Counted from the first letter of the stretch, positions 20,355 to 43,465 are shown. The stretch is DNA of 43,465 nucleotides from a bacterium (GCA_041487495.1 JBGPNN010000001.1:1-43465), one strand, 5' to 3'. Notes: a model not told the origin generated them from the letters alone. A program made the numbers and translations.

Positions 20355-20364
20355 GTTCTTTAAC

Positions 20365-21207
20365 ATGCCTGTGAGGGATGTGGAAAACGGCATGCATCGC
20401 CACGAGTTACTCGTCTCCACCGACTGGCTGGCCGCGAATCTATTCAACAGCGATGTGCGGATCGTTGACCTGCGCTGGTCACTGGATGATCAGGACCTGG
20501 GCGAGCGTGAGTACCTCCGCGCGCATATTCCCGGCGCGGTTTACCTCCATTACCTGCGGGACCTTTCTCACCCGGACGATCGTGTCCCTGGCAAGATCGC
20601 CTCGCCCGATCGCTTCCGCGCAGTGATGGAAGCGGCGGGTATCGGCGACAATACTCAGGTGGTCGCCTACGATGATAACGGCATTTTCATGGCCGCTCGT
20701 CTAGTGTGGAGCCTTCACTACTATGGGTACAGCAACGCCCGAATCCTGGACGGCGGAATTCCGAAGTGGCTGGCGGAAGGCCGGCCCGCGGAATCCGGTA
20801 GAATAGGGTATGCTCCACAGCAATTTACTCCGCGACTCAATCCTGCGATCCGCGCAACCAAAGAAGACGTACTTGCGATTTCCACTGGGGACTGCCGGCT
20901 GCTTGACTGTCGCATGGACCGCACGTGGTTTGCGACAGGGATGCACATCCCTGGGGCCAGTCGACTTCCGGCACCCGCCGTGCTCAGGGAAGACGGCACA
21001 TGGAAGCCGCTTGAAGAACTGAGACAATTGGCGGCCTCGACGGGTGGACTGCCGGGTAAACCTGTCGTGCTGTATTGTGGCGGGGGTGTTTCGGCCTCGT
21101 GCTGCTACGTGATGTTCAAGATGCTGGGCTTGGAGAACATTGCGGTCTATGATGGTTCCTGGCAGGAGTGGGGAAGCGACCCTAACACACCCAAGGAGCC
21201 TCACTAG
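20365..21207 (+). CDS. Two-domain rhodanese sulfurtransferase (SseA / 3-mercaptopyruvate-thiosulfate type)
   Basis: Tandem rhodanese domains. The N-terminus reads LVSTDWLAANL. The active-site loop is YCGGGVSAS. The C-terminal YDGSWQEWG motif is present. ATG 20389 (MHRHELLVS), behind GAGGGA, is an alternative start. Confidence 0.85.
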   Translation: MPVRDVENGMHRHELLVSTDWLAANLFNSDVRIVDLRWSLDDQDLGEREYLRAHIPGAVYLHYLRDLSHPDDRVPGKIASPDRFRAVMEAAGIGDNTQVVAYDDNGIFMAARLVWSLHYYGYSNARILDGGIPKWLAEGRPAESGRIGYAPQQFTPRLNPAIRATKEDVLAISTGDCRLLDCRMDRTWFATGMHIPGASRLPAPAVLREDGTWKPLEELRQLAASTGGLPGKPVVLYCGGGVSASCCYVMFKMLGLENIAVYDGSWQEWGSDPNTPKEPH

Positions 21208-21222
21208 GCGTCACCCCGGCAG

Positions 21223-21250
21223 GCTGTGGTCCGCCGCAGCGCGGGATTTT
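21223..21250 (+). terminator. Possible intrinsic terminator after the rhodanese gene
   Basis: GCTGTGG at 21223-21229, loop TCCG, CCGCAGC at 21234-21240 (one G-U pair). A TTTT run follows at 21247-21250. Confidence 0.3.
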
Positions 21251-21278
21251 GGCCTCGGTCCAAAAAAGGGGACTCTTC

Positions 21279-22064
21279 ATGTACACGATCACTCCGCAGG
21301 TTGTAGCTGTTGGGCCGAAGCGCGAAAAAAGCCGCTTTACGTACATGCACAACTTTGGCCAGAAGATAGACATCCCATATGTCTCTTGGCTCATCCAGGG
21401 CAACGGTATAACGGTCTTGGTAGACGCTGGGTGCAGCGCTGAGGACTACCGTACGCACATCCGGCCGGCCGACCGCCCTCTGATGCTTGCGGGAGAGCAG
21501 TTCGCAGACGTCGTTGACGTGAAGCCTCTGGAGGAGCACCTTCGTGACCGGGGCCTTCGTTTTGACGACATCGACATTCTGATTCAGACCCACCTCGACT
21601 GGGATCACACGATGGGAACTCGCCGCTTCAAGAAGAGCAGAATCCTGCTGCAACGCGCGGAGTGGGCCAAAATCCCATTTCACCCACTCTTCGAGGGCAC
21701 GTACGCCCCAAAGTACATCTACGAAGAAATATCCAAACTCAACCTCCATCTGCTCGAAGGTGACCACACGGTTGCGCCCGGGCTGGAAATACTCTATACG
21801 CCTGGGCACAGCCCCGGCGGGCAATCCGTTGTGGTGGAGACCGGTCAGGGGCCTTATGTGATTGCAGGCATGTGCACGATTCGCGAGAATTTTTACCCGC
21901 CCGCGGACGTACTTGCTCATTCAGAGTACCGTGTGATTCCCGCTGGGATGCACATTGATCCGCTCGTCTGTTACGATAGCATGCTGCGGATCCTGGAGAG
22001 GGGTGGTGAACGGGTTCTTCCGTTCCACGATAGCTCTATCATGTCTATGGGAACGATCCGCTAG
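21279..22064 (+). CDS. Metallo-beta-lactamase-fold hydrolase (lactonase-like) with a variant metal motif
   Basis: Start set at ATG 21279 (MYTITPQ). The motif THLDWDH sits where the HxHxDH motif is expected. Later His residues occur in YTPGHSPG and LPFHD. Confidence 0.75.
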   Translation: MYTITPQVVAVGPKREKSRFTYMHNFGQKIDIPYVSWLIQGNGITVLVDAGCSAEDYRTHIRPADRPLMLAGEQFADVVDVKPLEEHLRDRGLRFDDIDILIQTHLDWDHTMGTRRFKKSRILLQRAEWAKIPFHPLFEGTYAPKYIYEEISKLNLHLLEGDHTVAPGLEILYTPGHSPGGQSVVVETGQGPYVIAGMCTIRENFYPPADVLAHSEYRVIPAGMHIDPLVCYDSMLRILERGGERVLPFHDSSIMSMGTIR

Positions 22065-22173: not shown

Positions 22174-22950
22174 GTGCAGACGCGTCGTTCTTGGGGACTG
22201 GAGGAGAAAGTCGTCGTCGTCACCGGGGCCAGTCGCGGTCTAGGGCGATGGATAAGCCTCGCATTCGCGCGTGCCGGGTCGCGGCTTGCCGTTGCGGCCC
22301 GGAACCGGGTGCTCCTTGACGACGTTGCCTCGGAACTGCGCCAGGCACGGGTCGAGGTGATCACGATTCCCACGGACGTTCGCGATCCCGACGATTGTGC
22401 CCGGCTGCTCGAGACCGCGCATGCACACTTTGGCCGCATAGACATTTTGGTGAACAACGCCGGCACGGCGGTGCGGAAACCAGCCGTAGAGATCACCGTC
22501 GACGACTTTGATGCGATTGTGCAGACCAACTTTCGAGGGACCTACTTTTGCACTGTCGCTGCCGGGAGGATCATGGTGGGTCAGAGGAGCGGGGCCGTGG
22601 TGAATATTGCTTCAACCTCCGCCGTGTTAGTCCGACGCGGTGTTCCGAACTCAGTGTATGGGCCTTCGAAAGCCGCGATTGTTATGCTCACCAAGGCTTT
22701 GGCGGAGGAGTGGGCTCCGTTCGGGGTTCGAGTCAATTGCGTGGCTCCCGGTCGCCTGCCGACGGATCTGTCCAGGAGTCTCGCGCCGCAAGGTACCCGC
22801 GAGTGGGAGAGCCTAACGCAAACGATTCCTATGGGACGGCTGGGGGAACCGGAGGATATTGCGGAGCCGGTTCTCTTCCTCGCTTCGCCCTTGAGTGGCT
22901 ATATCACCGGACAGACCCTCTTCGTGGACGGCGGTAGAACCATCCTGTAA
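22174..22950 (+). CDS. Short-chain dehydrogenase/reductase (classical SDR, FabG-like)
   Basis: TGASRGLG cofactor motif, NNAG, and the catalytic S...YGPSKAA (YxxxK) are present. Confidence 0.9.
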   Translation: MQTRRSWGLEEKVVVVTGASRGLGRWISLAFARAGSRLAVAARNRVLLDDVASELRQARVEVITIPTDVRDPDDCARLLETAHAHFGRIDILVNNAGTAVRKPAVEITVDDFDAIVQTNFRGTYFCTVAAGRIMVGQRSGAVVNIASTSAVLVRRGVPNSVYGPSKAAIVMLTKALAEEWAPFGVRVNCVAPGRLPTDLSRSLAPQGTREWESLTQTIPMGRLGEPEDIAEPVLFLASPLSGYITGQTLFVDGGRTIL

Positions 22951-23010: not shown

Positions 23011-23466
23011 GTGGAGCGCACGCCGTCGGACAAACAGGTCGTCGGGGACATCCTGGAACCTCTCGAGTTCACTGTGACGCCAGAGATGAACGAGCAGTAT
23101 TTGTATGGTCAAGAAGACTACCATCCACGATACGTAGAGAGAACCCCCGCCAGTCTGCCGCTGGTGCACCCGGCGCTGCTGCTCAACATGAGCAACATGC
23201 CCCGCAGTCCGTCTTTTTCAGTTTCCTCTGGTCTCGCGGCCATTCATGTCGGAGAGCAATGTGAATTTCTGCGGCCCGTCAGAGTGGGGCAGCCGATCAA
23301 GGTTACCTGGGTGGTCAGGGACGCGTACGAGAAACGAGGACGCCCCTATCGAGTTTATGATGCGCTCATCACCCATGCGGCGGGCGAACCCATCATGCGG
23401 AGGCGGATAGAGAATACCTATGTGTCCGCGGCGATGAGCATTGCGGAAAAAGGGAGCGATAGGTAA
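23011..23466 (+). CDS. Hot-dog fold protein, MaoC-dehydratase N-terminal-half-like subunit
   Basis: 151 aa, of hot-dog size. It lacks the hydratase motif. It sits 6 nt upstream of a MaoC-type partner. GGGGAGG lies upstream of GTG 23011. Confidence 0.65.
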   Translation: MERTPSDKQVVGDILEPLEFTVTPEMNEQYLYGQEDYHPRYVERTPASLPLVHPALLLNMSNMPRSPSFSVSSGLAAIHVGEQCEFLRPVRVGQPIKVTWVVRDAYEKRGRPYRVYDALITHAAGEPIMRRRIENTYVSAAMSIAEKGSDR

Positions 23467-23472
23467 CCTCGG

Positions 23473-23907
23473 ATGACGATCTTGACCAGACAAACAACAG
23501 TCGGCTCGGAGTTTAGCGGCAAGAAGAGCACGTTGACATGGGAGCGACTCTGGGCTTTTTCAGGGGGTCTGTTTGCCGCGGACGGTTGGCCTAAGAAGAA
23601 CATCCATACAGACATGGGCGCCGCGAAGGCGACGGGGCTCTACACAGTAGCGGCCTCCGGCACACAGTATCAGGGCTACGCAGTATCCCTTCTCATTGAT
23701 CTGTTCGGCGAACAGTGGTTGGGCAACGGCTCTATGACCGCGAAATTCATCGCTGTCGTCACCGTCAACGACACGATCCAGCCAAAAGCGAAAGTGGTCG
23801 CTGTGCGTACCGAGCAAGGACGAAGCCTGTTCGAACTCGAACTCTGGTGTGAGAATCAGAACGGCACTAAGGTTATGGTAGGAACCGCGGTCGGGTCAAT
23901 TGCCTAG
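23473..23907 (+). CDS. MaoC-like (R)-specific enoyl-CoA hydratase/dehydratase subunit
   Basis: 144 aa. KKNIHTD resembles the hydratase-2 N-P-I-H-x-D motif. The C-terminal hot-dog sheet is recognisable (VVAVRTEQGRSLFELELWCENQNG). Confidence 0.75.
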   Translation: MTILTRQTTVGSEFSGKKSTLTWERLWAFSGGLFAADGWPKKNIHTDMGAAKATGLYTVAASGTQYQGYAVSLLIDLFGEQWLGNGSMTAKFIAVVTVNDTIQPKAKVVAVRTEQGRSLFELELWCENQNGTKVMVGTAVGSIA

Positions 23908-23958: not shown

Positions 23959-25158
23959 GTGGCGATGGCTCGACTGAGCGAAGATGTCACTAAGGACCTG
24001 CTACGCAAACACGGCATTCGGGTTCCGCCTGGAGTTGTGGTAACTTCTTCTTCGGGCGTGGAGGAAATTGTTCAATCCATGGGTCCGCAGGTGGTGGTCA
24101 AGGCCCTCGTGCCTGCCGGCCGGCGAGGGAAAGCCGGGGCTGTTCAAAAGGCGGCGGGTGTCTCGGACGCACGGCGGATCATCGATAGCATCCTAGGGTC
24201 CAAGGTCCATGGGTACATGGTCCGGCAAGTGCTCATTGAACACGCGATCCCCATCGCACACGAACTCTATACGGCATTCACGTTTGGTCCCGATGGCGCC
24301 AGGGTGTTGGCTTCTACACGAGGTGGGGTCGATATCGAGGAAACGCACCTTCAGCATCCCGAGGCGATTGTTGTGCATTCTGTCGACCACGTGACAGGAT
24401 TTAGGCGGCATCAGTGTGTCGACCTCTGGCGGCGAACCGGGGTTCGCGGGTCCCAGTTGGTCGATCTGTCATACTTTACCCTTCGTCTATGGGAAACGTT
24501 TCGAGAGGTGGATGGCTTCATGCTCGAGATAAATCCTCTCGCCGTTGATGAAAGCGGACACCTTTGGGCAGTGGGTGCGATGCTCGACGTTGACGACGCT
24601 GCAATGTTTCGGCATCCGGATTTCGCGAGGGTCCCCGTGGACGCCGGACCGGGATGGCGCGAGCCTACCATTCGTGAGAGGGCGGTCGGGGAGGCCGACC
24701 GCGCCCTGGTCGGAGGCAGGGTGCGCTACATTGAACTGGAGGGAGAGATAGGTCTCTTTGTGGCTGGAGGCGGGGCCGGGCTGATGATTCACGATCTTCT
24801 GATTGCGTTCGGGGGCAGACCGGCGAACCACACCGACATCACCCCAGGTCGGTCTCCCGACAAACTCTCCGCCGTTTTCGATGCAATTTTCACACAGCCA
24901 CACGTGAAGAGTCTGCTGGTGTGCGTCAACTATCTTCAAATGGTAAGGGCGGATGTGGTCGTGGAGGCTCTTGTGCGTTCCATCGCAGATCATCACGTTA
25001 CCACAGAACGGTTCCCCATTGTTGTTCGCGTTTTTGGCCCTGGCGAAGGCAATGCACGAATACTTGCCTCGCAAGTGCCCGGTATTCGATACCTCCCTCA
25101 CGGAACCGATATCGAAGAGGCAGTCAGGCTCATTGTCGATCTAACCTCGCGCGTTTGA
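23959..25158 (+). CDS. Succinyl-CoA synthetase beta-subunit-like ATP-grasp protein (ADP-forming acyl-CoA synthetase, substrate unknown)
   Basis: The N-terminus (ARLSEDVTKDLLRKHGIRVPPG...VVVKALVPAGRRGKAG) parallels SucC. The C-terminal CoA-ligase domain is present. ATG 23965 is a likely alternative start. Confidence 0.8.
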   Translation: MAMARLSEDVTKDLLRKHGIRVPPGVVVTSSSGVEEIVQSMGPQVVVKALVPAGRRGKAGAVQKAAGVSDARRIIDSILGSKVHGYMVRQVLIEHAIPIAHELYTAFTFGPDGARVLASTRGGVDIEETHLQHPEAIVVHSVDHVTGFRRHQCVDLWRRTGVRGSQLVDLSYFTLRLWETFREVDGFMLEINPLAVDESGHLWAVGAMLDVDDAAMFRHPDFARVPVDAGPGWREPTIRERAVGEADRALVGGRVRYIELEGEIGLFVAGGGAGLMIHDLLIAFGGRPANHTDITPGRSPDKLSAVFDAIFTQPHVKSLLVCVNYLQMVRADVVVEALVRSIADHHVTTERFPIVVRVFGPGEGNARILASQVPGIRYLPHGTDIEEAVRLIVDLTSRV

Positions 25159-25173
25159 GGACACCACACGGCA

Positions 25174-27473: not shown

Positions 27474-28262
27474 ATGGACGCTTCTCGGAAACCAGTGGAG
27501 CTCGAAGAGTCGGACAAGCTACGGCGGACTCTCCGCAGCGATCCCCCTGATCGCCTGGGCAAGTCCACGTGGGAGATATTGGAGGAGGCCATCAGGGATG
27601 GGAAGCAGGCTGAGACTTTGGCGATTCTCGATTACCTGCAGGAAGGCGAGGTTGCTCCGCGCCATTTCTTCTTTGCTGATTGGGTGTACGGCAATTTCTC
27701 CTACGTCGTCGAGGCCTTCGGCGAGGACGCATACGAGGACATGTTTAGGGCGACGTGGGGTGCCAAATCGGATGGTGTACCTGGCAGCGTAGAGGGTTTC
27801 GAGCCCGGGCTTCTCACGGATGTGCGGGCCTTGGTGAATAGACATGCTGAGATAATGCGTGGTCATTGTCCTCCACCGGGCGCGATCCAGATCTCGGAAG
27901 AAGCGGATCGTTTTGTGATGAAGCTTCTTCCATGCAACTCGGGCGGGCGAATGCTCCGGAGCGGGATGACGCAGGGAGACTGGAACCTTCCCGTGACTGA
28001 AAAGGCCCACCGGTGGTCCTGGGGCAAGGGTGGGAAGCCTCTCTACTGCTGCCACTGTGCCTTGAGTCGGGGCATCATGGCGACGGAGACGAGGGGGTTT
28101 CCGATCCGAGTTCATGAAATACCCGGACGCGGGCTCAATCCCGATTCCGACCATCCTTCCGACCCTTGTTGTATGATTTTCTATAAGGAACCAGAGTTGA
28201 TTCCCGAGGAATACTTCACCGCCCTTGGACTCAAGAAGGAACCATCCAAATTTCAGCGCTAG
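27474..28262 (+). CDS. Uncharacterised Cys/His-motif protein, paralogue A
   Basis: The ORF opens at GTG 27456. ATG 27474 follows GGAGGG (27464-27469). Conserved blocks are shared with the next gene (LPCNSGGRMLR, HRWSWGKGGKPLYCCHCA, DPCCMIFYKEPELIPEEYF). I recognise no family. Confidence 0.7.
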   Translation: MDASRKPVELEESDKLRRTLRSDPPDRLGKSTWEILEEAIRDGKQAETLAILDYLQEGEVAPRHFFFADWVYGNFSYVVEAFGEDAYEDMFRATWGAKSDGVPGSVEGFEPGLLTDVRALVNRHAEIMRGHCPPPGAIQISEEADRFVMKLLPCNSGGRMLRSGMTQGDWNLPVTEKAHRWSWGKGGKPLYCCHCALSRGIMATETRGFPIRVHEIPGRGLNPDSDHPSDPCCMIFYKEPELIPEEYFTALGLKKEPSKFQR

Positions 28263-31681: not shown

Positions 31682-31693
31682 GAGATCAAAGCG

Positions 31694-35350: not shown

Positions 35351-35370
35351 GGCCTGTCGCGTGAAAAGCG

Positions 35371-38131: not shown

Positions 38132-39319
38132 GTGAGTCGGGAGCTGCTGGCGCGCATCATTCAGCGTGACGATTTGGATTTGGCGATTCGCTTGACGCAG
38201 AAGGCGGTTCGAATTCCTAGCATTAACGGCGAAGAGGGGCCACTGGGAAAAGAGGTGTATCGGTGGCTGGGGGAGCTGGGGTTTGAAGAGGCCGAACTCC
38301 AGGAAATCTACCCAGGGCGTTACAATGCGACCGGAGTGCTCCACGGCCGTCGCCCAGGTCCAACTCTGGTCCTTACAGGACACCTCGATAATAAGCCCGT
38401 GTGTTATGGCTGGGACACCGACCCGTTTTCAGGAGCAATTGTAGATGGTCGCCTCTATGGCCATGGCGTGATGGACATGAAGGCAGCAGTCTGTTGCCAG
38501 ATTGCTGCGATTCATGCGTTGCGGCGGTCGGGCGTCGATTTCGCTGGCACTATCAGCTTTGCCGCTGTCGCCGACCACATGGGTGCGCAGCAGGGCAGCA
38601 TCGATTTTTTCAAGAAGACGCGGGCCGACATGGCTATTCTCGGGGAGTTGAGCGACAACCGAGTCTATGTTGGCCATCGCGGGCGCTACTACTTCGACAT
38701 CACCACGCTAGGTCGGGCGGCCCATACCTACCGGAAAGCAGACGCCATTAGCGCCATCAACAAGATGGCAGGGGTTGTGAAGCGTATCGACGCTATTCGA
38801 TACTATCCCAAGCTCGATCCAGAGACGGCGCGGCTGTTCGGGGAGGAGCTCTATATGGCCGTGGGCCGCATCTACGGGGGATTACCGCCCGATGGGCCCT
38901 CCATGATTCCTGACCGGTGCACTATTCGCGTGGATACCCGCCCCCAGCCTGGCGTGCCTGTCGAAGAAGTGCAGGCGGTGATCGAGGCGGCGCTCAGCGA
39001 GCTCAAGGCGAAGGATCCCGAGCTGAAGACGGAAATGGTTGTCGCCGATGTCAAGAATTGGCACTGGATCAAACCGGATGAACCGATCGTTCGCCTCGTG
39101 AGTCAAGCAGCAGAAATCGTCAAGGGCGAGCCGACAACTGTGCATGCCGTCAGCTGGCTTGGTGACACGGCCAGTTTCGGAAGGATCGTGCCGACGGTTA
39201 TCTTTGGGCCCGGGCGTGAGCCGATCTACATGCCAAACGAGTATCTTGACCTCAAGGATATTGAGATTGCTACAAAGGTGTACGCTCTGACAGCTGCTCT
39301 GGCGCTCGATGCTCACTAG
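38132..39319 (+). CDS. M20-family metallohydrolase (ArgE/DapE/acylase-type amidohydrolase)
   Basis: LVLTGHLDNKPV, GHGVMDMKAA, the central dimerisation domain and a C-terminal IYMPNEY-type segment are present. Confidence 0.82.
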   Translation: MSRELLARIIQRDDLDLAIRLTQKAVRIPSINGEEGPLGKEVYRWLGELGFEEAELQEIYPGRYNATGVLHGRRPGPTLVLTGHLDNKPVCYGWDTDPFSGAIVDGRLYGHGVMDMKAAVCCQIAAIHALRRSGVDFAGTISFAAVADHMGAQQGSIDFFKKTRADMAILGELSDNRVYVGHRGRYYFDITTLGRAAHTYRKADAISAINKMAGVVKRIDAIRYYPKLDPETARLFGEELYMAVGRIYGGLPPDGPSMIPDRCTIRVDTRPQPGVPVEEVQAVIEAALSELKAKDPELKTEMVVADVKNWHWIKPDEPIVRLVSQAAEIVKGEPTTVHAVSWLGDTASFGRIVPTVIFGPGREPIYMPNEYLDLKDIEIATKVYALTAALALDAH

Positions 39320-39341: not shown

Positions 39342-40343
39342 GTGTCCGGACTTGGATTGCTCGATATCACGGCCGGCGTGCGTCGATTGCTCGAGGTCTG
39401 CGTCGCGCTGCGACCGCGCGAACGGGCCCTTCTGGTGACTGATACGGGGTCCGATGCTGACATCGTTGCCGCGTTCGCCCTCATCGTTAAGGAGATGGGA
39501 GCGGAACCCGTGATCATAGTCATGGAGCGCCGACCAGTTCCAGGCGCGGAGCCGCCGGAGACTGTAGCGGTGGCGATGAAAGCCGCCGACATTGTCCTTG
39601 AGCTCACGTCCCAGTTCATCGGTAGCAGCCGGGCGCGGGTCGAGGCTTGCAGGGCTGGCGCACGCTACCTAGTGCTTGTCCAGCTTGGCCGAGCGAACTT
39701 GCTTGAGGGTGGGGCCGTGTGGGCCGACTTTGATGGTATCAAACCGCTAGCCGAGCGATTGGGGGATGTTTTCGGCCGGGCGAAGAGGATACGCTTTGTA
39801 ACTACGGCGGGGACAGACCTCACGGCGAGCATTGAGGGGCGTCACGGTCGTCCACTCGTCGGGTTGGCCCGGGAGAAGGGAGGGTACGCTGCGCCACCCG
39901 ATATTGAAGTGGGGATCTCGCCAGTCGAGGGTACGGCCAACGGCACGATCGTGGTGGATGGTGCTCTCCTTCTTATGGCGGATGGTGTCTTGCGAGAACC
40001 GGTGAGGATTGTCGTGAAGGACGGTCTCGCTGTATCGGTCGAGGGGCGGGAAGCTTATGCGCTGCTAGAGATGATCCGACGATGCGACGATGATCCGCGC
40101 ATGTACAATCTGGCCGAGATGTCCATCGGCCTCAATCCGCTCGGCCGCGTGAGCGGCCTGGCCCTCGAGAGCGAGGCGGCGCTCGGCACCGGTCACATCG
40201 CGCTCGGCAACAATCTTGCCTACGGTGGACGCGTTGATGCTCCAGGGCATCTCGACTGCGTCCTGCGAGACATCACGGTCTACCTCGACGATGTGCTCAT
40301 AGTGAACGGGGGGCGGCTCGTCGGTGAATGGGTGCGCAGTTGA
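39342..40343 (+). CDS. M29/AmpS-like (COG2309) protein: aminopeptidase or NicX-like ring-cleaving dioxygenase relative
   Basis: GTDLTASIEGR, EMSIGLNP, GTGHIALGNN and APGHLDCVL (H...H-x-D) match the metal-binding C-terminus of this fold. Confidence 0.65.
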   Translation: MSGLGLLDITAGVRRLLEVCVALRPRERALLVTDTGSDADIVAAFALIVKEMGAEPVIIVMERRPVPGAEPPETVAVAMKAADIVLELTSQFIGSSRARVEACRAGARYLVLVQLGRANLLEGGAVWADFDGIKPLAERLGDVFGRAKRIRFVTTAGTDLTASIEGRHGRPLVGLAREKGGYAAPPDIEVGISPVEGTANGTIVVDGALLLMADGVLREPVRIVVKDGLAVSVEGREAYALLEMIRRCDDDPRMYNLAEMSIGLNPLGRVSGLALESEAALGTGHIALGNNLAYGGRVDAPGHLDCVLRDITVYLDDVLIVNGGRLVGEWVRS

Positions 40344-40407: not shown

Positions 40408-41427
40408 ATGAGGGCGGCACTTCTTCAGGCGAACGGCCAGATTGCAATCGGCGAGTTTTCAGATCCATCCGATAGTGACAGCGTCATCGTTCGGGTCAAG
40501 GCTGCCGGGATCTGTGGTACGGAACTACATTTTCTGGACAGACTCCTGCAGCCAGATGCTTATCCGTTCATCCTAGGGCACGAGATTTCGGGTACGGTCG
40601 AGAAGGTTCCAGCCCGCGAGAGCGGGTTTCGCCCAGGGGATAGGGTTGCCGTCTATAACGTCATCGGATGTGGATCTTGCCGTCATTGCGCGACGGGGCG
40701 CACAAACCTGTGTGACCGGCCCCGGCAAATCGGTTTCAATGTCCATGGTGGGTTCGCGGAGTTTGTCGCTGCGCCCCCTCAGACATTGGTTCGGATCCCA
40801 GATTCGGTGCCGTTCGAGACCGCCGCGGTCCTCGCCTGCAGCGGGATGGCGGCCGTTCATGCCTCGCGTGCTGCAGGGGTCACGCTGAACACTATCGCGA
40901 TCGTCAACGGGATCGGCGGCGTGGGCCTCATGGTGATCCAGGTGGCGCGGCTGGCGGGTGCTGATGTGATCGCCGTTGGGGACAGCGATGCGAAACTTGC
41001 GCTGGCAAAGGAATTCGGAGCCGTGGCGACGGTTCGAGCCGCGGATGAGAAGGACTATGAGGCCCTCCCTGGACGCGTCCGTGCGTTGGTTGGGGGCGGT
41101 GCCGACTACTTCTTCGAACTCGTGGGGACGACCGCAAGCATGGCAGCGGGATTTCAGTCGCTCGGCAAGAGGGGGACGTTTGTCAGCATCGGATACACTG
41201 GCGACAAACTCGTCGTGAATCCGGTTGACCTCTTGATCAAGGAGCAACGCCTGGTAACGTGTGTCGCTGCCGCCAAGCGAGACCTAGATGATGCCGTCAG
41301 TCTGGCAGGCGCCGGCAAGCTGCGCGCGTCAATTCAGGGCCGCGTGCCGCTCGACCAGCTACTTGAGGCGCTGCGCAGTCTGCGAGAACGCCGCGTCCTG
41401 GGTCGGAACATTGTGACGTTCGCCTAG
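40408..41427 (+). CDS. Zinc-dependent medium-chain alcohol dehydrogenase
   Basis: The catalytic zinc site is CGTELH...GHEISGTV. The structural zinc site is GCGSCRHCATGRTNLC. The NAD fold is GIGGVG. Confidence 0.9.
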   Translation: MRAALLQANGQIAIGEFSDPSDSDSVIVRVKAAGICGTELHFLDRLLQPDAYPFILGHEISGTVEKVPARESGFRPGDRVAVYNVIGCGSCRHCATGRTNLCDRPRQIGFNVHGGFAEFVAAPPQTLVRIPDSVPFETAAVLACSGMAAVHASRAAGVTLNTIAIVNGIGGVGLMVIQVARLAGADVIAVGDSDAKLALAKEFGAVATVRAADEKDYEALPGRVRALVGGGADYFFELVGTTASMAAGFQSLGKRGTFVSIGYTGDKLVVNPVDLLIKEQRLVTCVAAAKRDLDDAVSLAGAGKLRASIQGRVPLDQLLEALRSLRERRVLGRNIVTFA

Positions 41428-41500
41428 TGATAGTCGCCGCGAGCGATTTGGCAGGAACTGAAGGGGGAGTTGACGTGGCCCTGCAGACGCGGAAGCCTGA

Positions 41501-42010
41501 ATTGACGTTTCTGAGGAAACCGCCGCGCATGGCCCCCTGGTGTCGCAAGAACAACTTGAGCGTGTGCTCGGGTACATTGAGCTGGGTCAACAGGAGGGCG
41601 CCCGGGTCATGTCCGGAGGCTACCGAGCAGGAGACGAGCTTTCCAGGGGCTTCTTTGTTGCACCCACGGTTCTTGGCAACGTGTCCAACGATATGAGGGT
41701 GGCCAGGGAAGAGATCTTCGGGCCGGTTGTGGCGATCATGCGTTTTGAGGACGTCGAAGAGGCCGTACGCCTCGCCAACGCGACGTCGTTTGGGCTTTGT
41801 GCGGGTGTCTGGACACGGGACATCGCGAAAGCGCACCGTGTTGCTGCGGCCCTTCGATGCGGGACGGTATGGGTGAACACCTATGGTATGTTCGATCCCA
41901 GCACCCCTTACGGCGGCTACAAGATGAGTGGCTACGGTCGAGAACTCGGAGAGGCCGCTCTGGATGCCTACACGCAGGTGAAGAGTGTGTGGATCAACAC
42001 GGGCTCATGA
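41501..42010 (+). pseudogene. 5-prime-truncated aldehyde dehydrogenase remnant (C-terminal third or so only)
   Basis: In-frame ALDH similarity (HGPLVSQEQLERVLGYIE...EEIFGPVVAIMRFEDVEEAVRLANATSFGLCAGVWT...GGYKMSGYGRE) starts right after a TGA at 41498-41500. The N-terminal two-thirds of a normal ALDH of about 490 aa, including the catalytic Glu/Cys region, is missing. Only 73 nt separate this point from the ADH stop codon. Confidence 0.7.
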
Positions 42011-42095
42011 TCGGTGTCGAGCAAGATTGCGTCGTCCCGTGATTGAAAGCGTGCGTCGTGGGTAACGCAATCAACGTGCGAGGAAGGGGAATGGA

Positions 42096-43465
42096 ATGGG
42101 CCGTTATCTGGTTGTAGGCAACCCCGTCGTCACGCTCGGCGAGCGAGACTATATTGAAGACGGCGCACTCATCATCGAAGATCGTCACGTCGTTGCGGTC
42201 GGGCCACGTGAACGCCTCCAGGCGATGGGGCCGTTCGAACGGACCATCGGCTCACCGCATCACTTTGTCATGCCTGGGTTCATCAATGGACACTTTCATT
42301 CTGGCGGGGCGATGGGTAGGGGTCTCATCCAGTATGTGTTCGAGAGAGCGAACGTCCACGCGCAGACGAATCGTGGTGCGGTCACCGAAGAGGATCTGTT
42401 CAACGCGACCGCGTTGAGCTTGATCCGATGTATTCGGGGTGGCCAGACGGCAGCGGTGGACTTCAGCTACGGTCGGCCCGGCATGCCACAATTCGGAAAC
42501 GAACCCATTCTCCGTGCCTATGAGGCGGTCGGTTTTCGTGGTGCGATCGGCGTAGTGACCCGTGATCAGAACATCTATGTCCACGGTGACAATGAAGCGT
42601 TTCTGGCGATGCTGCCCGCAGCTCTAGCGAAGGAGGTGCGGGCGTCTCCGATGGGCTATGCTTGGCCCGTCGACGAGGTCATCGCGACCTACCGAGAGTT
42701 GGTGAAGGCGTGGGACGGCCGCGACGGTCGGATTCGGTTGATCCTGGCCCCCGATTGGACGCCAGCCTGCTCCGACGATCTCTATCTGTTGAACCGACGT
42801 CTGGCCAATGAGTACGGGACCGGCGTGACAACCCACGTCCTCGAGACGCGGTCGGAGATGGTTTTCACCCTCAAAGCCTACGGGAAGACGGCCATGCGAC
42901 GGCTTGACGATCTCGGGGTGCTCGGACCGGACTTCTCCTGCGCGCATTTCGTTTGGGCGACCGATGAAGACATTGCCATCGCGCGTGACAGCGGGTCAGT
43001 TCCGGTCAACAACCCTGGCTCGAATCTGCGTCTCAGTACAGGCATCGCGCGCGTGCGTGACATCATCGACTCGGGCGGTCGGATTGCTTTCGGAACCGAC
43101 AGCATTTCGTTCTCCGATCACGAGGACTTCTTCCAAGAGTTGCGGTTGGCAGCCACCCTACAGCGGATCCCGACGGACCTCGAGATCGGGCGGCTGGACA
43201 CGGCCAAACTACTCCGATTGGCGGCAACCAGCGGGGCGCGCGCCGTGCGCTTCGAGAAACAGCTCGGTTCGCTGGAACCCGGGAAAGAGGCTGATCTGCT
43301 CATCTTGAAACGTGACCGGATATTTTGGCCTCCGGGGAAATACGATCAGGTTCCGGTTCTGGACGTGATCATCGATCGGGCCAATGCCACGGATTTGGAC
43401 TCCGTGATCATCGCTGGGAGGGCTGTGCTCGACGCCGGGAGGATCACGACTGTCGACGAACAAAA
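42096..43465 (+). CDS. Amidohydrolase-superfamily protein, TRZ/ATZ (aminohydrolase/deaminase) type, 3-prime end beyond the window
   Basis: Absent from the ORF track because it has no stop in the window. The frame is open from ATG 42096 (MGRYLVVGNPVVTLGERDYIEDGALIIEDRHVVAVG...FVMPGFINGHFH) to the right edge. FGTDS lies near the C-terminal part. GAGGAAGGGG lies upstream. Confidence 0.85.
   Translation, partial: MGRYLVVGNPVVTLGERDYIEDGALIIEDRHVVAVGPRERLQAMGPFERTIGSPHHFVMPGFINGHFHSGGAMGRGLIQYVFERANVHAQTNRGAVTEEDLFNATALSLIRCIRGGQTAAVDFSYGRPGMPQFGNEPILRAYEAVGFRGAIGVVTRDQNIYVHGDNEAFLAMLPAALAKEVRASPMGYAWPVDEVIATYRELVKAWDGRDGRIRLILAPDWTPACSDDLYLLNRRLANEYGTGVTTHVLETRSEMVFTLKAYGKTAMRRLDDLGVLGPDFSCAHFVWATDEDIAIARDSGSVPVNNPGSNLRLSTGIARVRDIIDSGGRIAFGTDSISFSDHEDFFQELRLAATLQRIPTDLEIGRLDTAKLLRLAATSGARAVRFEKQLGSLEPGKEADLLILKRDRIFWPPGKYDQVPVLDVIIDRANATDLDSVIIAGRAVLDAGRITTVDEQ

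What the first reader, a model, noticed from the sequence alone, without database searches (positions are those of the whole stretch)
20355..43465. Compositional break at tRNA-Thr followed by 23 kb or more of co-directional CoA-centred catabolic genes (possible acquired island)
Everything right of tRNA-Thr (20279-20354) is on the plus strand. Gaps are very short, and several junctions overlap (32896/32906, TGATG at 34111-34115, GTGA at 34883-34886). Hand counts of single 60-nt lines give about 48-68% GC here, against mostly 63-80% to the left. The functional theme also changes, from housekeeping and repair to accessory catabolism. tRNA 3-prime flanks are classical island insertion points. The gene set recalls catabolic clusters for aryl- or heteroaryl-carboxylates, such as the anaerobic indoleacetate (iaa) cluster of Aromatoleum/Azoarcus as I remember it. 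That cluster also combines a PaaK-type ligase, a family III CoA-transferase and an MCM-like mutase. Here those occur together with hydratases, an SDR, several amidohydrolases, a solute-binding protein and a GntR regulator. The substrate cannot be deduced from sequence alone.
Basis: partly seen in the sequence, partly recalled or inferred. Interest (0 to 1): 0.68.

Follow-up and report, generated by a model that had tools for sequence, protein, structure and literature searches.

The report
Catabolic genomic island at tRNA-Thr
A 28.6-kb block of lower-GC catabolic genes was inserted between a threonine tRNA gene and the EF-Tu gene of an uncultured Armatimonadota-like bacterium: it is an ordinary kind of genomic island that has lost its integrase, but it carries a widespread, uncharacterised gene cluster that may break down the pyrimidine half of vitamin B1.

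Summary
GC falls from 66.6% to 59.6%. GC3 falls from 0.81 (11 genes) to 0.67 (24 genes) with no overlap, and the best change point is 20240 (20070-20350), at tRNA-Thr(GGT). The window is a whole MAG contig, so I found the far end on a 99.8%-identical contig. About 200 bp after the last gene lies a degenerate 50-nt copy of the tRNA-Thr 3' part, followed by a hairpin and tuf. A congener (L020) and a distant Armatimonadota MAG (L018) have the empty site, HK-tRNA-Thr-hairpin-tuf. Another congener (L010/L013) carries the island. The island is about 28.6 kb, has 29 plus-strand genes and no integrase. Its proteins are 89% identical between the two carriers. That exceeds flank proteins at comparable host divergence (70-87%), so lateral spread is favoured. 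The iaa comparison holds only as a family-level analogy. The right two-thirds belongs to a gene set recurring in 38 metagenome loci: M20, NicX-fold protein, split B12 mutase, CoA-transferase III, TenA, F420-type LLM. These loci usually have a ThiY-like binding protein. My inferred function is catabolism of a thiamine-type 5-substituted pyrimidine via methylmalonyl-CoA (confidence about 0.3).

The parts
20238..20265 (+). Promoter-like site upstream of tRNA-Thr (TTGAAT, 16-nt spacer, TATAAT, with TG). It belongs to the native flank and is also present in the empty-site relatives.
   Evidence: 10 of 12 matches. The same motif lies upstream of tRNA-Thr in L020 and L018.
20279..20354 (+). tRNA-Thr(GGT). 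This is the left boundary of the island (attL side). Its 3' 49 nt are repeated in degenerate form at the far end of the island.
   Evidence: ARAGORN; Rfam 70.7 bits. It is 76/76 identical to the tRNA at the empty site of L020. The repeat is shown.
20355..43465 (+). The part of the genomic island that lies in the window (23.1 of about 28.6 kb). The rest runs to window-equivalent position about 48970 on L019.
   Evidence: GC/GC3 step; right end on L019; empty sites in L020 and L018.
20392..21207 (+). Two-domain rhodanese, resembling 3-mercaptopyruvate sulfurtransferase (module A).
   Evidence: Pfam Rhodanese 1.8e-32. NCBIfam PRK11493 scores 139 bits, below its cutoff. It is 90% identical to the sister-species copy, which starts at the equivalent of M10.
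21279..22064 (+). Metallo-beta-lactamase-fold hydrolase, lactonase-like.
   Evidence: Lactamase_B 8.7e-16. AiiA and 4-pyridoxolactonase models hit far below cutoff. A 48% identical homolog sits in the L016 cluster.
22174..22950 (+). SDR oxidoreductase (module A).
   Evidence: adh_short_C2 7.7e-62.
23011..23907 (+). Two adjacent MaoC-like hot-dog proteins (23011-23466 and 23473-23907). They are a putative heteromeric enoyl-CoA hydratase.
   Evidence: MaoC_dehydratas 5e-7 for the second protein; weak FAS1_DH and MaoC hits for the first.
23959..26085 (+). SucC-like (23959-25158) and SucD-like (25174-26085) subunits of an ADP-forming acid-CoA ligase. This is a divergent paralog of succinyl-CoA synthetase.
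   Evidence: ATP-grasp_2, CoA_binding and Ligase_CoA. NCBIfam scores of 223 and 297 bits are below the equivalog cutoffs of 370 and 336-353.
26123..27448 (+). PaaK-type aryl- or heteroaryl-acetate-CoA ligase.
   Evidence: AMP-binding_C_2 and AMP-binding. PaaK models score 338-350 bits against cutoffs of 646-700.
27474..29055 (+). Pair of paralogous Cys/His-rich proteins of unknown family: unkA (27474-28262) and unkB (28324-29055).
   Evidence: No Pfam or NCBIfam hit. The two are 34% identical to each other. 82 homologs were found, some named Chloroflexi. The pair is conserved next to a crotonase in L101. Invariant C154, C192, H194, C195 and C232. The model has pLDDT 87 and no PDB fold match.
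29215..30951 (+). Family-5 (Opp/Dpp/Nik-type) solute-binding protein and first gene of module B. A promoter-like site lies at 29076-29105. The matching permeases and ATPases lie beyond the window end.
   Evidence: SBP_bac_5 4.8e-66; promoter-like site; permeases and ATPases on L001, L019 and L013.
31037..32365 (+). Two TenA (thiaminase II)-like proteins (31037-31681 and 31694-32365).
   Evidence: TENA_THI-4 about 1e-27 to 1e-28. The best PDB match is B. subtilis TenA 1TYH. The catalytic Cys (LPC) and Glu are kept, and the Asp44 position holds Asn.
32511..32906 (+). Methylmalonyl-CoA epimerase (glyoxalase fold).
   Evidence: TIGR03081 scores 122.2 bits, above its cutoff of 114.95.
32923..34113 (+). 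Family III CoA-transferase.
   Evidence: CoA_transf_3 2.9e-130. The best NCBIfam models (succinate-glutarate and succinyl-CoA:mesaconate transferases) score well below cutoff.
34113..34886 (+). GntR/FCD transcriptional regulator. Its start overlaps the CoA-transferase stop (TGATG).
   Evidence: FCD and GntR domains; junction sequence.
34916..37041 (+). Split coenzyme-B12 acyl-CoA mutase: B12-binding small subunit (34916-35350, motif DGHDRG) and large subunit (35380-37041).
   Evidence: B12-binding 3.5e-25 and MM_CoA_mutase 3.2e-195. Alignment to HcmA 4R3U and human MCM shows the MCM-type Tyr (MRQYAGFG) and Arg (YLARKLYIF), but Phe in GFHAREAG. DxHxxG motif.
37067..38086 (+). Luciferase-like oxidoreductase of the F420-dependent Mer type.
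   Evidence: Bac_luciferase 8.3e-54. Mer models score 199-201 bits, below cutoff. The best PDB matches are Mer structures at 174 bits.
38132..39319 (+). M20 (ArgE/DapE-type) deacylase.
   Evidence: Peptidase_M20 and M20_dimer. It co-occurs with the NicX-like gene in 35 of 38 long loci.
39342..40343 (+). NicX-fold / M29-related metalloprotein.
   Evidence: Precomputed PF26233. It scores 50 bits to P. putida NicX 7CN3; the HLD motif is kept and the His265 position holds Glu. Model pLDDT 94. Foldseek TM is 0.79 to NicX and 0.60-0.68 to M29 aminopeptidases.
40408..41427 (+). Zn-dependent alcohol dehydrogenase.
   Evidence: ADH_N and ADH_zinc_N.
41540..42010 (+). Remnant of an aldehyde dehydrogenase gene (C-terminal 156 codons). 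About 948 bp are deleted at about 41531 relative to the intact 494-aa gene of the sister species.
   Evidence: The Aldedh match covers only profile positions 313-461. The intact gene is at L013 12149-13633. Deletion mapped.
42093..43465 (+). TRZ/ATZ-type amidohydrolase (deaminase/chlorohydrolase subfamily), cut by the contig end. The full protein is 533 aa on L019.
   Evidence: Amidohydro_1 6.6e-43. NCBIfam TRZ/ATZ, 5'-deoxyadenosine deaminase and SsnA models all score below cutoff. Full length seen.

Best explanation
Window 20355-43465 is the left 23.1 kb of a genomic island of about 28.6 kb with 29 genes.

Shown:
- The island integrated into the 3' part of tRNA-Thr(GGT) and split the ancestral tRNA-Thr-tuf arrangement.
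- The functional tRNA lies at the left end.
- A decaying copy of tRNA positions 28-76 lies at the right end, directly before the native hairpin and tuf.
- Integrase and other mobility genes are gone, so the island is now fixed cargo.
- The island is present in two species of one Armatimonadota-like genus and absent, with an exact empty site, from a third species and from a distant relative.

Inferred, history: the two island copies are more alike than the host genomes seem to be. The island therefore probably spread laterally, or was captured twice at the same att site, and was probably not inherited from the common ancestor.

Shown, cargo: there are two modules with the same foreign codon usage.
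- Module A (20.4-29.1 kb): rhodanese, lactonase-like MBL, SDR, MaoC pair, SucCD-like ligase, PaaK-like ligase, and a Cys-rich unknown pair.
- Module B (29.2 kb to the end): an ABC importer plus a GntR-controlled gene set that recurs in many soil and sediment metagenome contigs.

Inferred, function of module B (confidence about 0.3):
1. It imports a thiamine-derived or similar 5-(substituted-methyl)pyrimidine.
2. It trims the pyrimidine (M20 deacylase, TenA, ADH/ALDH, TRZ/ATZ deaminase).
3. It reduces and opens the ring (F420-type LLM, NicX-fold metalloenzyme).
4. It passes the resulting branched C4 acid as methylmalonyl-CoA through CoA-transferase, epimerase and B12 mutase to succinyl-CoA.
For: Composition. 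GC is 0.666 against 0.596. GC3 is 0.81 against 0.67 without overlap. The change point is 20240. Codon-usage distance to the flank is twice the within-region baseline, while modules A and B are alike. Extension genes on L019 have GC3 of 0.65-0.70.

Boundaries. The right end was seen on L019, which is 99.8% identical to the window (for the same contig as L001). The Amidohydro_2 stop is followed by a spacer of about 200 bp. Then comes a 50-nt alignment to tRNA-Thr positions 28-76 (local score 60, against a maximum of 43 in 2000 shuffles). Then come 'GCAGTTGACGGCCGCCGC' (hairpin) and the tuf start. The sister species has an 11-nt CGTGGGCTCCA followed by the same hairpin and tuf. In that species one 35.8-kb contig spans both junctions.

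Empty sites. In L020 the tRNA-Thr CCA is followed at once by GCAGTTGACGGCCGCCGC, the hairpin and tuf. L018 has HK, tRNA-Thr, hairpin, tuf.

No mobility genes. No integrase or transposase domain occurs in any island gene.

History. The HK tree puts the island-bearing L010 with the island-free L020 (90% in the HK C-terminal part), away from the window (79%). Flank proteins between window and L020 are 70-87% identical. Twenty-eight island proteins between window and sister species average 88.9%.

Cargo. Families were assigned. Counts of loci carrying each family near NicX-like homologs, in 38 metagenome loci of at least 8 kb: M20 35, B12 small subunit 32, MCM 30, CoA-transferase 26, TenA 23, LLM 18, GntR 13. 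Eight of the ten module A gene families were found in none of them; rhodanese homologs in 2 and an MBL homolog in 1. The same set occurs in L012, L016 and L017. A ThiY-like SBP (3IX1, 142 bits) with a NitT-type permease occurs in 24 of 38. All seven TenA paralogs keep the thiaminase II Cys and Glu. The epimerase scores above the TIGR03081 cutoff. The mutase has the Tyr and Arg of carboxylate-substrate mutases and a DxHxxG small subunit. No TPP riboswitch is present.
Against: - No integrase, excisionase or transfer gene remains, so integrase-mediated insertion is inferred only from the att-like repeat and the empty sites.
- The right end was not seen on the window contig itself (it ends at 43465). 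It was seen on a 99.8%-identical contig from another sample.
- The lateral-spread inference rests on five flank proteins. They were compared with L020, not with the island-bearing L010, for which only 309 aa of HK flank were available. Catabolic enzymes could simply evolve more slowly than a sensor kinase.
- Function: the window's own importer is family 5 (Opp/Dpp type), not ThiY-like.
- The M20 was not shown to be a YlmB ortholog.
- Most TenA paralogs have Asn where B. subtilis TenA has Asp44.
- The NicX-fold protein has Glu at the NicX His265 position, so neither dioxygenase nor hydrolase chemistry can be assigned.
- ALDH is deleted in the window's species and short in L016, so it is dispensable.
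- No published pathway of this kind was found.
Confidence: 0.8

Rival explanations
1. Single ancient acquisition. The island entered the common ancestor of the two carrier species, was inherited vertically, and was later lost from the L020 lineage. Loss would be by excision or by recombination between the tRNA repeats.
For: The two carriers share the same insertion point, gene order and right-hand hairpin. The sister's 11-nt repeat can be derived from the 50-nt remnant by a deletion of about 240 bp. The remnant differs from the tRNA at about 8 of 49 positions, which suggests age.
Against: Island proteins are 88.9% identical between the carriers. Flank proteins at the same phylogenetic depth are 70-87% identical. 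The island-free L020 groups with the island-bearing L010 in the HK tree. This scenario therefore needs an extra precise loss.
Confidence: 0.35
2. The step is an assembly chimera. Two organisms of different GC were joined at a conserved tRNA gene in a MAG contig.
For: The window is a complete MAG contig, and tRNA genes are known chimera points (general knowledge).
Against: The same HK-tRNA-Thr-rhodanese junction occurs in independent assemblies of a different species from two samples (L010 and L011). One contig of that species spans both island ends. The right end carries a tRNA remnant followed by the same tuf leader as the empty sites.
Confidence: 0.01
3. The cargo is an iaa-like pathway for an aryl- or heteroaryl-carboxylate (ligase, then CoA-transferase, then mutase), as in anaerobic indoleacetate degradation.
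For: A PaaK-type ligase, a family III CoA-transferase, a split B12 mutase, an SBP and a regulator are all present. The iaa cluster uses these families (PMC8360864). L012 and L017 have a Mo-hydroxylase next to the mutase.
Against: There is no acyl-CoA dehydrogenase (IaaF type) in the island. The PaaK-like ligase and the rest of module A never accompany the mutase/CoA-transferase core in 38 long loci. The constant partners are instead TenA, M20, the NicX-fold protein and LLM. The epimerase passes the methylmalonyl-CoA epimerase cutoff. Mo-hydroxylase occurs in only 1 of 38 loci.
Confidence: 0.1
4. Module B is a thiamine-pyrimidine salvage unit (uptake, deformylation, TenA giving HMP for thiamine synthesis). 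It is not a catabolic pathway, and the CoA genes are unrelated neighbours.
For: TenA paralogs have catalytic residues, and an M20 and a ThiY-like SBP occur in related clusters. The ThiXYZ-YlmB-TenA salvage route is established (cited in PMC10470507).
Against: No TPP riboswitch is present in the window, L019, L016, L017 or L012. The clusters carry a GntR/FCD regulator instead. The mutase and CoA-transferase accompany the NicX-like gene almost as regularly as M20 does, and at least as often as TenA (30 and 26 of 38 loci, against 35 for M20 and 23 for TenA). No ThiD, ThiE or ThiM gene is nearby.
Confidence: 0.1

Closest known systems
tRNA-gene-associated genomic islands and degenerate integrative elements (P4-type and tyrosine-integrase islands, catabolic islands such as ICEclc)
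   Same: It is inserted at the 3' part of a tRNA gene and leaves the tRNA intact. It is flanked by a direct repeat of the tRNA 3' part. Its GC and codon usage are atypical. It carries accessory catabolic cargo. It shows presence/absence among close relatives with an exact empty site.
   Different: No integrase, excisionase, conjugation or phage genes remain. The gaps at both ends are too short (37 bp and about 200 bp) to hide a remnant integrase. The host is an uncultured Armatimonadota-like lineage. The target is the tRNA-Thr(GGT) that precedes tuf, so the island now separates the tRNA promoter from tuf.
iaa gene cluster of Aromatoleum aromaticum (anaerobic indoleacetate degradation; PMC8360864)
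   Same: It combines a PaaK-type CoA ligase, a family III CoA-transferase that works with succinyl-CoA, a two-subunit B12 acyl-CoA mutase, a binding protein and regulators. The logic of a substituted succinate/malonate CoA ester being rearranged is the same.
   Different: There is no IaaF-type decarboxylating acyl-CoA dehydrogenase. The ligase is not linked to the mutase in related clusters. The mutase sits with a bona fide methylmalonyl-CoA epimerase, TenA, M20, a NicX-fold protein and an F420-type LLM. Orthology to Iaa proteins was not tested.
Thiamine pyrimidine salvage ThiXYZ-YlmB-TenA (Bacillus; as cited in PMC10470507)
   Same: It has TenA-family enzymes with the catalytic Cys and Glu, and an M20-family deacylase. 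Most related clusters have a ThiY-like binding protein with a NitT-type permease and ATPase.
   Different: No TPP riboswitch and no thiD/thiE are present. GntR control is used instead. There are two or three TenA paralogs, most with Asn at the Asp44 position. The set is coupled to reductase, deaminase, CoA-transferase, epimerase and B12 mutase genes, which salvage does not need. The window's own transporter is family 5.
Methylmalonyl-CoA epimerase plus mutase module of propionate and thymine/valine catabolism
   Same: The epimerase passes the equivalog cutoff. The mutase large subunit has the Tyr/Arg pair of carboxylate-substrate mutases. The small subunit has DxHxxG.
   Different: No propionyl-CoA carboxylase or MeaB chaperone lies nearby. 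Phe replaces the Tyr of the MCM 'GYH' motif. By sequence score the closest solved structure is 2-hydroxyisobutyryl-CoA mutase HcmA. The module is fed by a CoA-transferase, not a carboxylase.
NicX, 2,5-dihydroxypyridine 5,6-dioxygenase of the Pseudomonas putida nic cluster
   Same: NicX is the best structural match (TM 0.79) and the only PDB sequence match. The His-x-Asp metal ligands are kept.
   Different: Identity is only 20%. The third ligand, His265, is Glu in all 22 aligned subfamily members. No NicC, NicD, NicF or NicE partners are present. The chemistry (dioxygenase or M29-type hydrolase) is undecided.

Membership tests
tRNA-associated genomic island | Insertion at or in the 3' end of a tRNA gene, with the tRNA kept intact | tested here: met
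   tRNA-Thr(GGT) lies at 20279-20354. The composition change point is 20240, interval 20070-20350. The tRNA is identical to the one at the empty site of L020.
tRNA-associated genomic island | Direct repeat of the tRNA 3' part at the distal end (attL/attR) | tested here: met
   A 50-nt degenerate copy of tRNA positions 28-76 lies at L019 17382-17431 (score 60 against a shuffle maximum of 43). An 11-nt exact repeat occurs in the sister species. The repeat is not in the window itself, because the contig ends first.
tRNA-associated genomic island | Empty target site in related genomes | tested here: met
   L020 (HK 70% identical) and L018 (HK 51% identical, named Armatimonadota) have tRNA-Thr followed directly by the hairpin and tuf.
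tRNA-associated genomic island | Composition and codon usage differ from the host core | tested here: met
   GC3 is 0.81 against 0.67 with no overlap. Codon-usage distance is twice the baseline. The tetranucleotide signal is only weak.
tRNA-associated genomic island | Integrase or other mobility genes at one end | tested here: not met
   No integrase, transposase or conjugation domain occurs in any of the 29 genes. The end gaps of 37 bp and about 200 bp are too short to hide one.
iaa (indoleacetate) catabolic cluster | PaaK-type ligase, family III CoA-transferase and two-subunit B12 mutase together | tested here: met
   All three families are present. This holds at family level only; orthology to IaaB, IaaL and IaaGH was not tested.
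iaa (indoleacetate) catabolic cluster | Decarboxylating benzylmalonyl-CoA dehydrogenase (IaaF, acyl-CoA dehydrogenase family) | tested here: not met
   No Acyl-CoA_dh domain occurs in the island. The feature is defined in PMC8360864.
iaa (indoleacetate) catabolic cluster | Ligase functionally linked to the mutase and transferase (conserved co-location) | tested here: not met
   PaaK-like homologs were found in 0 of 38 long loci that carry the core, while MCM was found in 30 and CoA-transferase in 26.
Thiamine pyrimidine salvage (ThiXYZ-YlmB-TenA) | TenA with the thiaminase II catalytic Cys and Glu | tested here: met
   Alignment to B. subtilis TenA 1TYH. Cys and Glu are invariant in seven paralogs. 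The Asp44 position holds Asn in five of seven.
Thiamine pyrimidine salvage (ThiXYZ-YlmB-TenA) | ThiY-type binding protein | tested here: not met
   The window has an SBP_bac_5 protein, and tblastn found no ThiY-like gene. Related clusters do have one: 24 of 38 loci, best PDB match 3IX1.
Thiamine pyrimidine salvage (ThiXYZ-YlmB-TenA) | TPP riboswitch control | tested here: not met
   No RF00059 match at gathering score in the window, L019, L016, L017 or L012.
Thiamine pyrimidine salvage (ThiXYZ-YlmB-TenA) | YlmB-orthologous formylaminopyrimidine deformylase | not tested
   An M20 family protein is present. No YlmB sequence or model was available for comparison.
Methylmalonyl-CoA epimerase/mutase module | Epimerase reaching the equivalog cutoff | tested here: met
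   TIGR03081 scores 122.2 bits against a cutoff of 114.95.
Methylmalonyl-CoA epimerase/mutase module | Mutase with the substrate-carboxylate Tyr/Arg pair and a DxHxxG B12 domain | tested here: met
   MRQYAGFG and YLARKLYIF align with the human MCM Tyr and Arg. HcmA has Ile and Gln at these positions (residue roles from my memory of the MCM/ICM/HCM literature). DGHDRG motif. The GFH variant of the GYH motif is unexplained.
Methylmalonyl-CoA epimerase/mutase module | Activity on methylmalonyl-CoA | not testable with these tools
   This needs an enzyme assay.
NicX 2,5-dihydroxypyridine dioxygenase | NicX fold | tested here: met
   The model has pLDDT 94. Foldseek TM to 7CN3 is 0.79, E = 4e-29.
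NicX 2,5-dihydroxypyridine dioxygenase | His-His-Asp iron triad (His265, His318, Asp320; residue numbers from memory of the NicX structure paper) | tested here: not met
   HLD is kept, but the position aligned with His265 (SHIGWG) is Glu (AEMSIG) and is invariant in 22 subfamily members.

The most novel reading that the evidence does not exclude
The conserved core carried by the island consists of a transporter, two or three TenA paralogs, an M20 deacylase, a NicX-fold metalloenzyme, an F420-type reductase, a TRZ/ATZ deaminase, a family III CoA-transferase, methylmalonyl-CoA epimerase and a B12 mutase, under GntR control. The most novel reading is that this core is an undescribed pathway that mineralises the pyrimidine moiety of thiamine or its breakdown products (FAMP, aminomethylpyrimidine, HMP, pyrimidine carboxylic acid). 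The C5-branched ring carbons would leave as methylmalonyl-CoA and then succinyl-CoA. Module A (PaaK-like heteroaryl-acetate ligase, rhodanese, hydratases and a Cys-rich unknown pair) might then handle the thiazole-acetic acid half. That would make the island a complete vitamin B1 catabolic island that moves between bacteria.
Probability: 0.25. Interest if true: 0.75.

Novelty: new member of a known kind. Interest (0 to 1): 0.45.

Why it matters
The island itself is a clean textbook case. Both ends, a decayed att repeat, two empty sites and a second carrier could all be recovered for an uncultured Armatimonadota-like lineage. It shows that tRNA-targeted islands shape catabolic capacity there, and that the tRNA-Thr site upstream of tuf is an integration site.

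The cargo matters more. The same gene set recurs in dozens of soil and sediment metagenome contigs, in a Gaiellales MAG and in other genomes, with no published function that I could find. A 2024 study states that the metabolic fates of the main thiamine degradation products are unknown (PMC11223231). If the cluster degrades thiamine-type pyrimidines, that question becomes directly testable with defined genes. It would also add a new role for a B12 mutase. Finally, the unkA/unkB pair is a family with no Pfam model and no solved structural relative.

Tried and rejected
- The genome-contig scan with the histidine kinase found only distant kinases (28-32% identity). The source genome is not a GTDB representative, and this used the only scan.
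- The exact look-up of the ADH failed. The population contig differs from the window at two residues.
- Four of five downstream proteins were not in the protein collection. I therefore reached the far end through the ALDH remnant.
- The window holds no second copy of the tRNA 3' end, even with 3 mismatches. The repeat lies beyond the contig end.
- P0141's contig returned no DNA and ends just after the kinase.
- The terminator scan found fewer sites than the shuffles gave, so no operon boundaries could be drawn.
- Tetranucleotide signatures normalised for base composition barely separate island from flank. The signal is in GC3 and codon choice.
- Literature searches for TenA+NicX, thiaminase II + luciferase-like + CoA-transferase, thiamine catabolism + ring cleavage, and thiamine degradation + HMP + mutase found no description of this cluster. 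One search was rejected for term length.
- Mo-hydroxylase looked like a core member after L012 and L017, but it occurs in only 1 of 38 loci, so I dropped it.
- I considered calling the NicX-like protein an M29-type dinuclear hydrolase because of invariant Glu and His residues. Neither sequence nor profile search reaches M29 structures, and the fold is closer to NicX. I left this undecided.
- The unkA fold search found nothing (best E 0.35).
- The chimeric-assembly explanation was rejected.

Full report
**1. The observation**

ARAGORN and Rfam place tRNA-Thr(GGT) at 20279-20354. GC is 0.666 to its left and 0.596 to its right.

The difference lies mainly in third codon positions. Eleven left-hand genes have GC3 of 0.775-0.838. 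Twenty-four right-hand genes have GC3 of 0.605-0.729. The ranges do not overlap (Mann-Whitney p = 3e-6). GC2 does not differ significantly, and GC1 differs less (0.72 against 0.65).

A single-change-point likelihood scan puts the break at 20240, with a 2-lnL interval of 20070-20350. This is the kinase/tRNA-Thr junction. Codon-choice distance between flank and island (0.087-0.098) is twice the distance within either side (0.047-0.049). Tetranucleotide signatures corrected for base composition separate the sides only weakly.

All credible genes right of the tRNA are on the + strand, and the quoted overlaps are in the sequence. The left side is a core region: ECF sigma/anti-sigma, polA, a Cu_amine_oxidN1 protein, uvrB, uvrA, uvrC, ogt, tRNA-Gly/Cys/Leu, a GGDEF response regulator and a PAS histidine kinase.

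**2. Where the sequence comes from**

The window is an entire 43,465-bp NCBI MAG contig, so nothing lies downstream in the source record. It is not a GTDB species representative. Homologs of the flanking kinase at about 51% identity are named 'Armatimonadota bacterium' by NCBI. Synteny with one such MAG is extensive. The host is therefore most likely an Armatimonadota lineage. This is an inference from names attached to relatives.

**3. Both ends of the block**

- Same population. Logan contig SRR35962460_52346 (L001/L019) is 99.8% identical to the window over 16.4 kb. It continues past the window end with the rest of the amidohydrolase (533 aa), two Opp/Dpp-type permeases, two ATPases and an Amidohydro_2 protein. 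These genes have GC3 of 0.65-0.70, the same as the block.
- Right end. About 200 bp after the Amidohydro_2 stop, L019 reads GTCCTTCGTAAGAACGAACTCATCGGTTCGGAATCGGTCGTGGGCGCCA. This aligns with positions 28-76 of the tRNA-Thr (anticodon arm to CCA). The local score is 60, against a maximum of 43 in 2000 shuffles. It is followed at once by GCAGTTGACGGCCGCCGC..GGCGGCC (a hairpin), a ribosome-binding site and ATGGCGAAGCAGAAATTT, the start of EF-Tu.
- The remnant is not recognised as a tRNA.
- In window-equivalent coordinates the block runs from 20355 to about 48970, or 28.6 kb.

**4. Relatives with and without the block**

- Second carrier. Contig ERR14652025_5910 (35.8 kb; L010 and L013) is about 85% identical in DNA to the window and so belongs to another species. 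On one contig it carries kinase, tRNA-Thr, the same genes in the same order, Amidohydro_2, then 16 nt, CGTGGGCTCCA (the last 11 nt of the tRNA), the same hairpin and tuf. Its island is 29.1 kb.
- Empty site in a congener. In L020 the kinase is 70% identical to the window's. The tRNA-Thr there is identical to the window's. Its CCA is followed directly by GCAGTTGACGGCCGCCGC, the hairpin and tuf.
- Empty site in a distant relative. In the Armatimonadota MAG L018 (kinase 51% identical) the order is uvrB-uvrA-uvrC-ABC-tRNA Gly/Cys/Leu-GGDEF-kinase-tRNA-Thr-hairpin-tuf.

The ancestral arrangement is therefore tRNA-Thr followed by tuf. It resembles the thrT-tufB linkage of E. coli (from my own knowledge). 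The block is an insertion into the 3' part of the tRNA gene, bounded by an att-type repeat. These independent assemblies also exclude a chimeric join at the tRNA.

**5. What kind of element it is**

None of the 29 genes has an integrase, transposase, phage or conjugation domain. The non-coding ends are too short to hide a remnant: 37 bp after the tRNA and about 200 bp before the repeat. It is a tRNA-integrated genomic island that has lost its mobility genes.

A repeat covering tRNA positions 28-76 is the footprint expected when an element carries a copy of the tRNA 3' part and recombines within it. That mechanism is inferred, not shown.

**6. History**

In a tree of the flanking kinase, the window groups with P0137. 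The island-bearing L010 groups with the island-free L020. The kinase C-terminal part is 90% identical between L010 and L020 but 79% between L010 and the window.

| Comparison | Protein identity |
|---|---|
| Flank, window vs L020: UvrA | 87% |
| Flank, window vs L020: GGDEF regulator | 81% |
| Flank, window vs L020: UvrC | 79% |
| Flank, window vs L020: Ogt | 76% |
| Flank, window vs L020: kinase | 70% |
| 28 island proteins, window vs L010/L013 | mean 88.9% (range 82.6-94.9) |

Accessory enzymes that are more alike than UvrA argue for lateral spread, or a second capture at the same site, after the host lineages split. I rate this about 0.55. One old gain followed by loss in L020 I rate about 0.35. 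The calibration is thin: five proteins, compared with L020 and not with L010.

**7. The cargo**

The island has two parts with the same codon usage.

Module A (20392-29055):
- a two-domain rhodanese;
- a lactonase-like MBL hydrolase;
- an SDR;
- two MaoC-like proteins;
- a divergent SucCD-like ligase;
- a PaaK-like ligase (338-350 bits against cutoffs of 646-700);
- two paralogous proteins of unknown family.

Module B starts at a promoter-like site at 29076-29105:
- a family-5 SBP;
- two TenA proteins;
- methylmalonyl-CoA epimerase (above the TIGR03081 cutoff);
- a family III CoA-transferase;
- GntR/FCD;
- the B12-binding small subunit (DGHDRG) and the mutase large subunit;
- a Mer-like F420-type LLM;
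- an M20 deacylase;
- a NicX-fold protein;
- a Zn-ADH;
- an ALDH remnant;
- a TRZ/ATZ-type amidohydrolase;
- beyond the window: permeases, ATPases and Amidohydro_2.

**8. Module B is a member of a widespread conserved cluster**

Homologs of the NicX-fold protein fall from 88% identity (the sister species) through 65% to a large group near 50%. Their contexts repeat the same families.

- L012: TRZ/ATZ amidohydrolase, M20, NicX-like, a branched-chain-type ABC system, a Mo-hydroxylase and the two mutase subunits.
- L016 (a 2.84-Mb contig): amidohydrolase, ADH, NMT1-type SBP, LLM, ADH, a short ALDH, M20, NicX-like, mutase, CoA-transferase, M20, LLM, TenA, ABC, TenA, MBL.
- L017 (a Gaiellales MAG): TenA, NMT1-type SBP, permease, ATPase, GntR/FCD, M20, NicX-like, M20, TenA, ADH, LLM, TenA, CoA-transferase, glyoxalase, mutase, Mo-hydroxylase.

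A metagenome scan gave 80 further loci. Counts in the 38 loci of at least 8 kb:

| Homolog of island protein | Loci of 38 |
|---|---|
| M20 | 35 |
| B12 small subunit | 32 |
| Mutase large subunit | 30 |
| CoA-transferase | 26 |
| TenA | 23 |
| LLM | 18 |
| GntR | 13 |
| Epimerase | 10 |
| ADH | 10 |
| ALDH | 8 |
| Amidohydro_1 | 8 |
| Module A: rhodanese / MBL / the other eight families | 2 / 1 / 0 |
| Mo-hydroxylase | 1 |

These counts are lower bounds because many contigs are cut. Most of these loci have 66-72% GC. L012, the closest relative of the island's core (M20 75%, NicX-like 65%, mutase 64%), has 58.6% GC, like the island.

**9. What module B may do**

The usual transporter in related clusters is a NitT/TauT-type system, found in 24 of 38 loci. 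Its binding protein matches ThiY best among solved structures. ThiY is the formylaminopyrimidine-binding protein (3IX1; 142 bits, E = 2e-40).

All seven TenA paralogs examined keep the catalytic Cys and Glu of thiaminase II. Five have Asn at the Asp44 position. In Bacillus, FAMP is imported by ThiXYZ, deformylated by YlmB and hydrolysed by TenA. YlmB searches retrieve M20 proteins (PMC10470507).

Unlike salvage genes, these clusters have no TPP riboswitch and carry a GntR/FCD regulator.

On the CoA side:
- The epimerase is a bona fide methylmalonyl-CoA epimerase by score.
- The mutase aligns with the Tyr and Arg that bind the substrate carboxylate in methylmalonyl-CoA mutase, where HcmA has Ile and Gln (residue roles from memory).
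- The mutase has Phe in place of the Tyr of the GYH motif.

A pyrimidine substituted at C5 gives a C3 backbone with a one-carbon branch when its ring is opened. Thymine behaves this way in the reductive pathway via beta-aminoisobutyrate and methylmalonate semialdehyde (established knowledge). That would explain why a CoA-transferase, an epimerase and a B12 mutase travel with TenA.

My working model, all inferred:
1. Uptake.
2. Deacylation (M20).
3. TenA-type substitution at the C5 methylene.
4. Side-chain oxidation (ADH, with ALDH where present).
5. Deamination (TRZ/ATZ).
6. F420H2-dependent ring reduction (the LLM is closest to Mer).
7. Ring opening (NicX-fold enzyme and/or amidohydrolases).
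8. Methylmalonate to methylmalonyl-CoA to succinyl-CoA.

I give this about 0.3.

The NicX-fold protein cannot be assigned a chemistry. Its best structural match is NicX (TM 0.79), followed by M29 aminopeptidases. One of the three NicX iron ligands is Glu in the whole subfamily. ALDH is deleted in the window's species (a 948-bp deletion at about 41531) and short in L016, so it is not essential. I found no paper describing such a pathway. A 2024 study calls the fates of the main thiamine oxidation products unknown (PMC11223231).

**10. Comparison with the iaa cluster**

IaaB is a CoA ligase, IaaL a phenylsuccinyl-CoA transferase and IaaGH a B12 mutase (PMC8360864). The island shares those three families and the idea of rearranging a substituted dicarboxyl-CoA.

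It is not a member, for three reasons:
- It has no IaaF-type acyl-CoA dehydrogenase.
- The PaaK-like ligase is not linked to the mutase in any related locus.
- The constant partners of the mutase are different.

Module A may be a separate CoA-dependent unit. A link to the thiazole-acetic acid half of thiamine (a heteroaryl-acetate for the PaaK-like ligase, with rhodanese handling sulfur) is only a speculation.

**11. Verdict**

- The compositional break is real and exact.
- The island interpretation is supported by an att-like repeat, two empty sites and a second carrier.
- The integrase is absent.
- As an island it is a new member of a well-known kind.
- The cargo is the more interesting part. 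It is a widely distributed, uncharacterised, B12-mutase-containing gene cluster with a pyrimidine/thiamine signature.

Noticed in passing
window 20107-20175 (- strand): A 22-codon hydrophobic micro-ORF (MDLIFWLVAALIVYFLFVRPPG) with a GAGGAGG ribosome-binding site lies between the kinase and tRNA-Thr. It is conserved in L010, L020 (MDLIFWVLAGLIIYFLFFRPPG) and the distant L018 (MDIIFWLLFGLIVYFLFVRPAG), so it is probably a real small membrane peptide gene.
   Followed up: partly
window 41428-42010; L013 12149-13633: The aldehyde dehydrogenase gene is intact (494 aa) in the sister species. In the window's population it has lost about 948 bp, leaving a 156-codon C-terminal ORF. L016 also has only a 161-aa ALDH-like ORF at the same place in its cluster.
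   Followed up: yes
window 27474-29055; L101 2440-4051: unkA and unkB are 34% identical paralogs of a small family (82 homologs found, several named Chloroflexi or Dehalococcoidales). The family has no Pfam or NCBIfam model. Residues C154, C192, H194, C195 and C232 are invariant. The model is confident (pLDDT 87) but has no structural relative in the PDB. The pair also occurs next to a crotonase and a transposase in L101.
   Followed up: partly
L019 17432-17516; L013 20252-20334; L014 end: Three independent assemblies all stop within the first 30 nt or so of tuf, just after the island. This suggests that tuf is a repeated (duplicated) gene in these genomes and breaks the assembly there.
   Followed up: no
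window 20238-20354 and the island's right end: In the empty-site relatives a near-consensus promoter drives tRNA-Thr, with tuf about 60 nt downstream. This suggests tRNA-tuf co-transcription, as in E. coli thrT-tufB. The island has moved tuf 28.6 kb away from that promoter. No terminator-like site follows the tRNA in the window, so the tRNA promoter may read into the rhodanese gene.
   Followed up: no
window 14634-15452: The O6-methylguanine-DNA methyltransferase (DNA_binding_1) carries an N-terminal PhdYeFM antitoxin-like domain. The same fusion is called in L020 and in the JGI contig.
   Followed up: no
L018 8579-8665 vs window 16544-16632: tRNA-Leu(TAA) is on the opposite strand in the distant relative L018. 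An ABC ATPase gene replaces ogt after uvrC there, which indicates small local rearrangements in otherwise conserved synteny.
   Followed up: no
L017 1-342: In the Gaiellales MAG a phage-type integrase fragment and a tRNA-Lys(CTT) lie about 4 kb from the first TenA gene of its cluster. That copy of the cluster may also sit in or near an integrated element.
   Followed up: no
window 35380-37041: The mutase large subunit has Phe in the otherwise conserved Gly-Tyr-His motif (TGFHAREAG, against SGYHMQEAG in human MCM and SGYHISEAG in HcmA). By score its closest solved relative is 2-hydroxyisobutyryl-CoA mutase, not MCM, although it has the MCM-type Tyr/Arg pair.
   Followed up: partly
window 16656-17774 (-) and 17751-20093 (+): The longest ORFs of the divergently oriented GGDEF response regulator and the histidine kinase overlap by 24 nt at their 5' ends. 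The real starts must lie further in, which leaves a very short shared control region.
   Followed up: no
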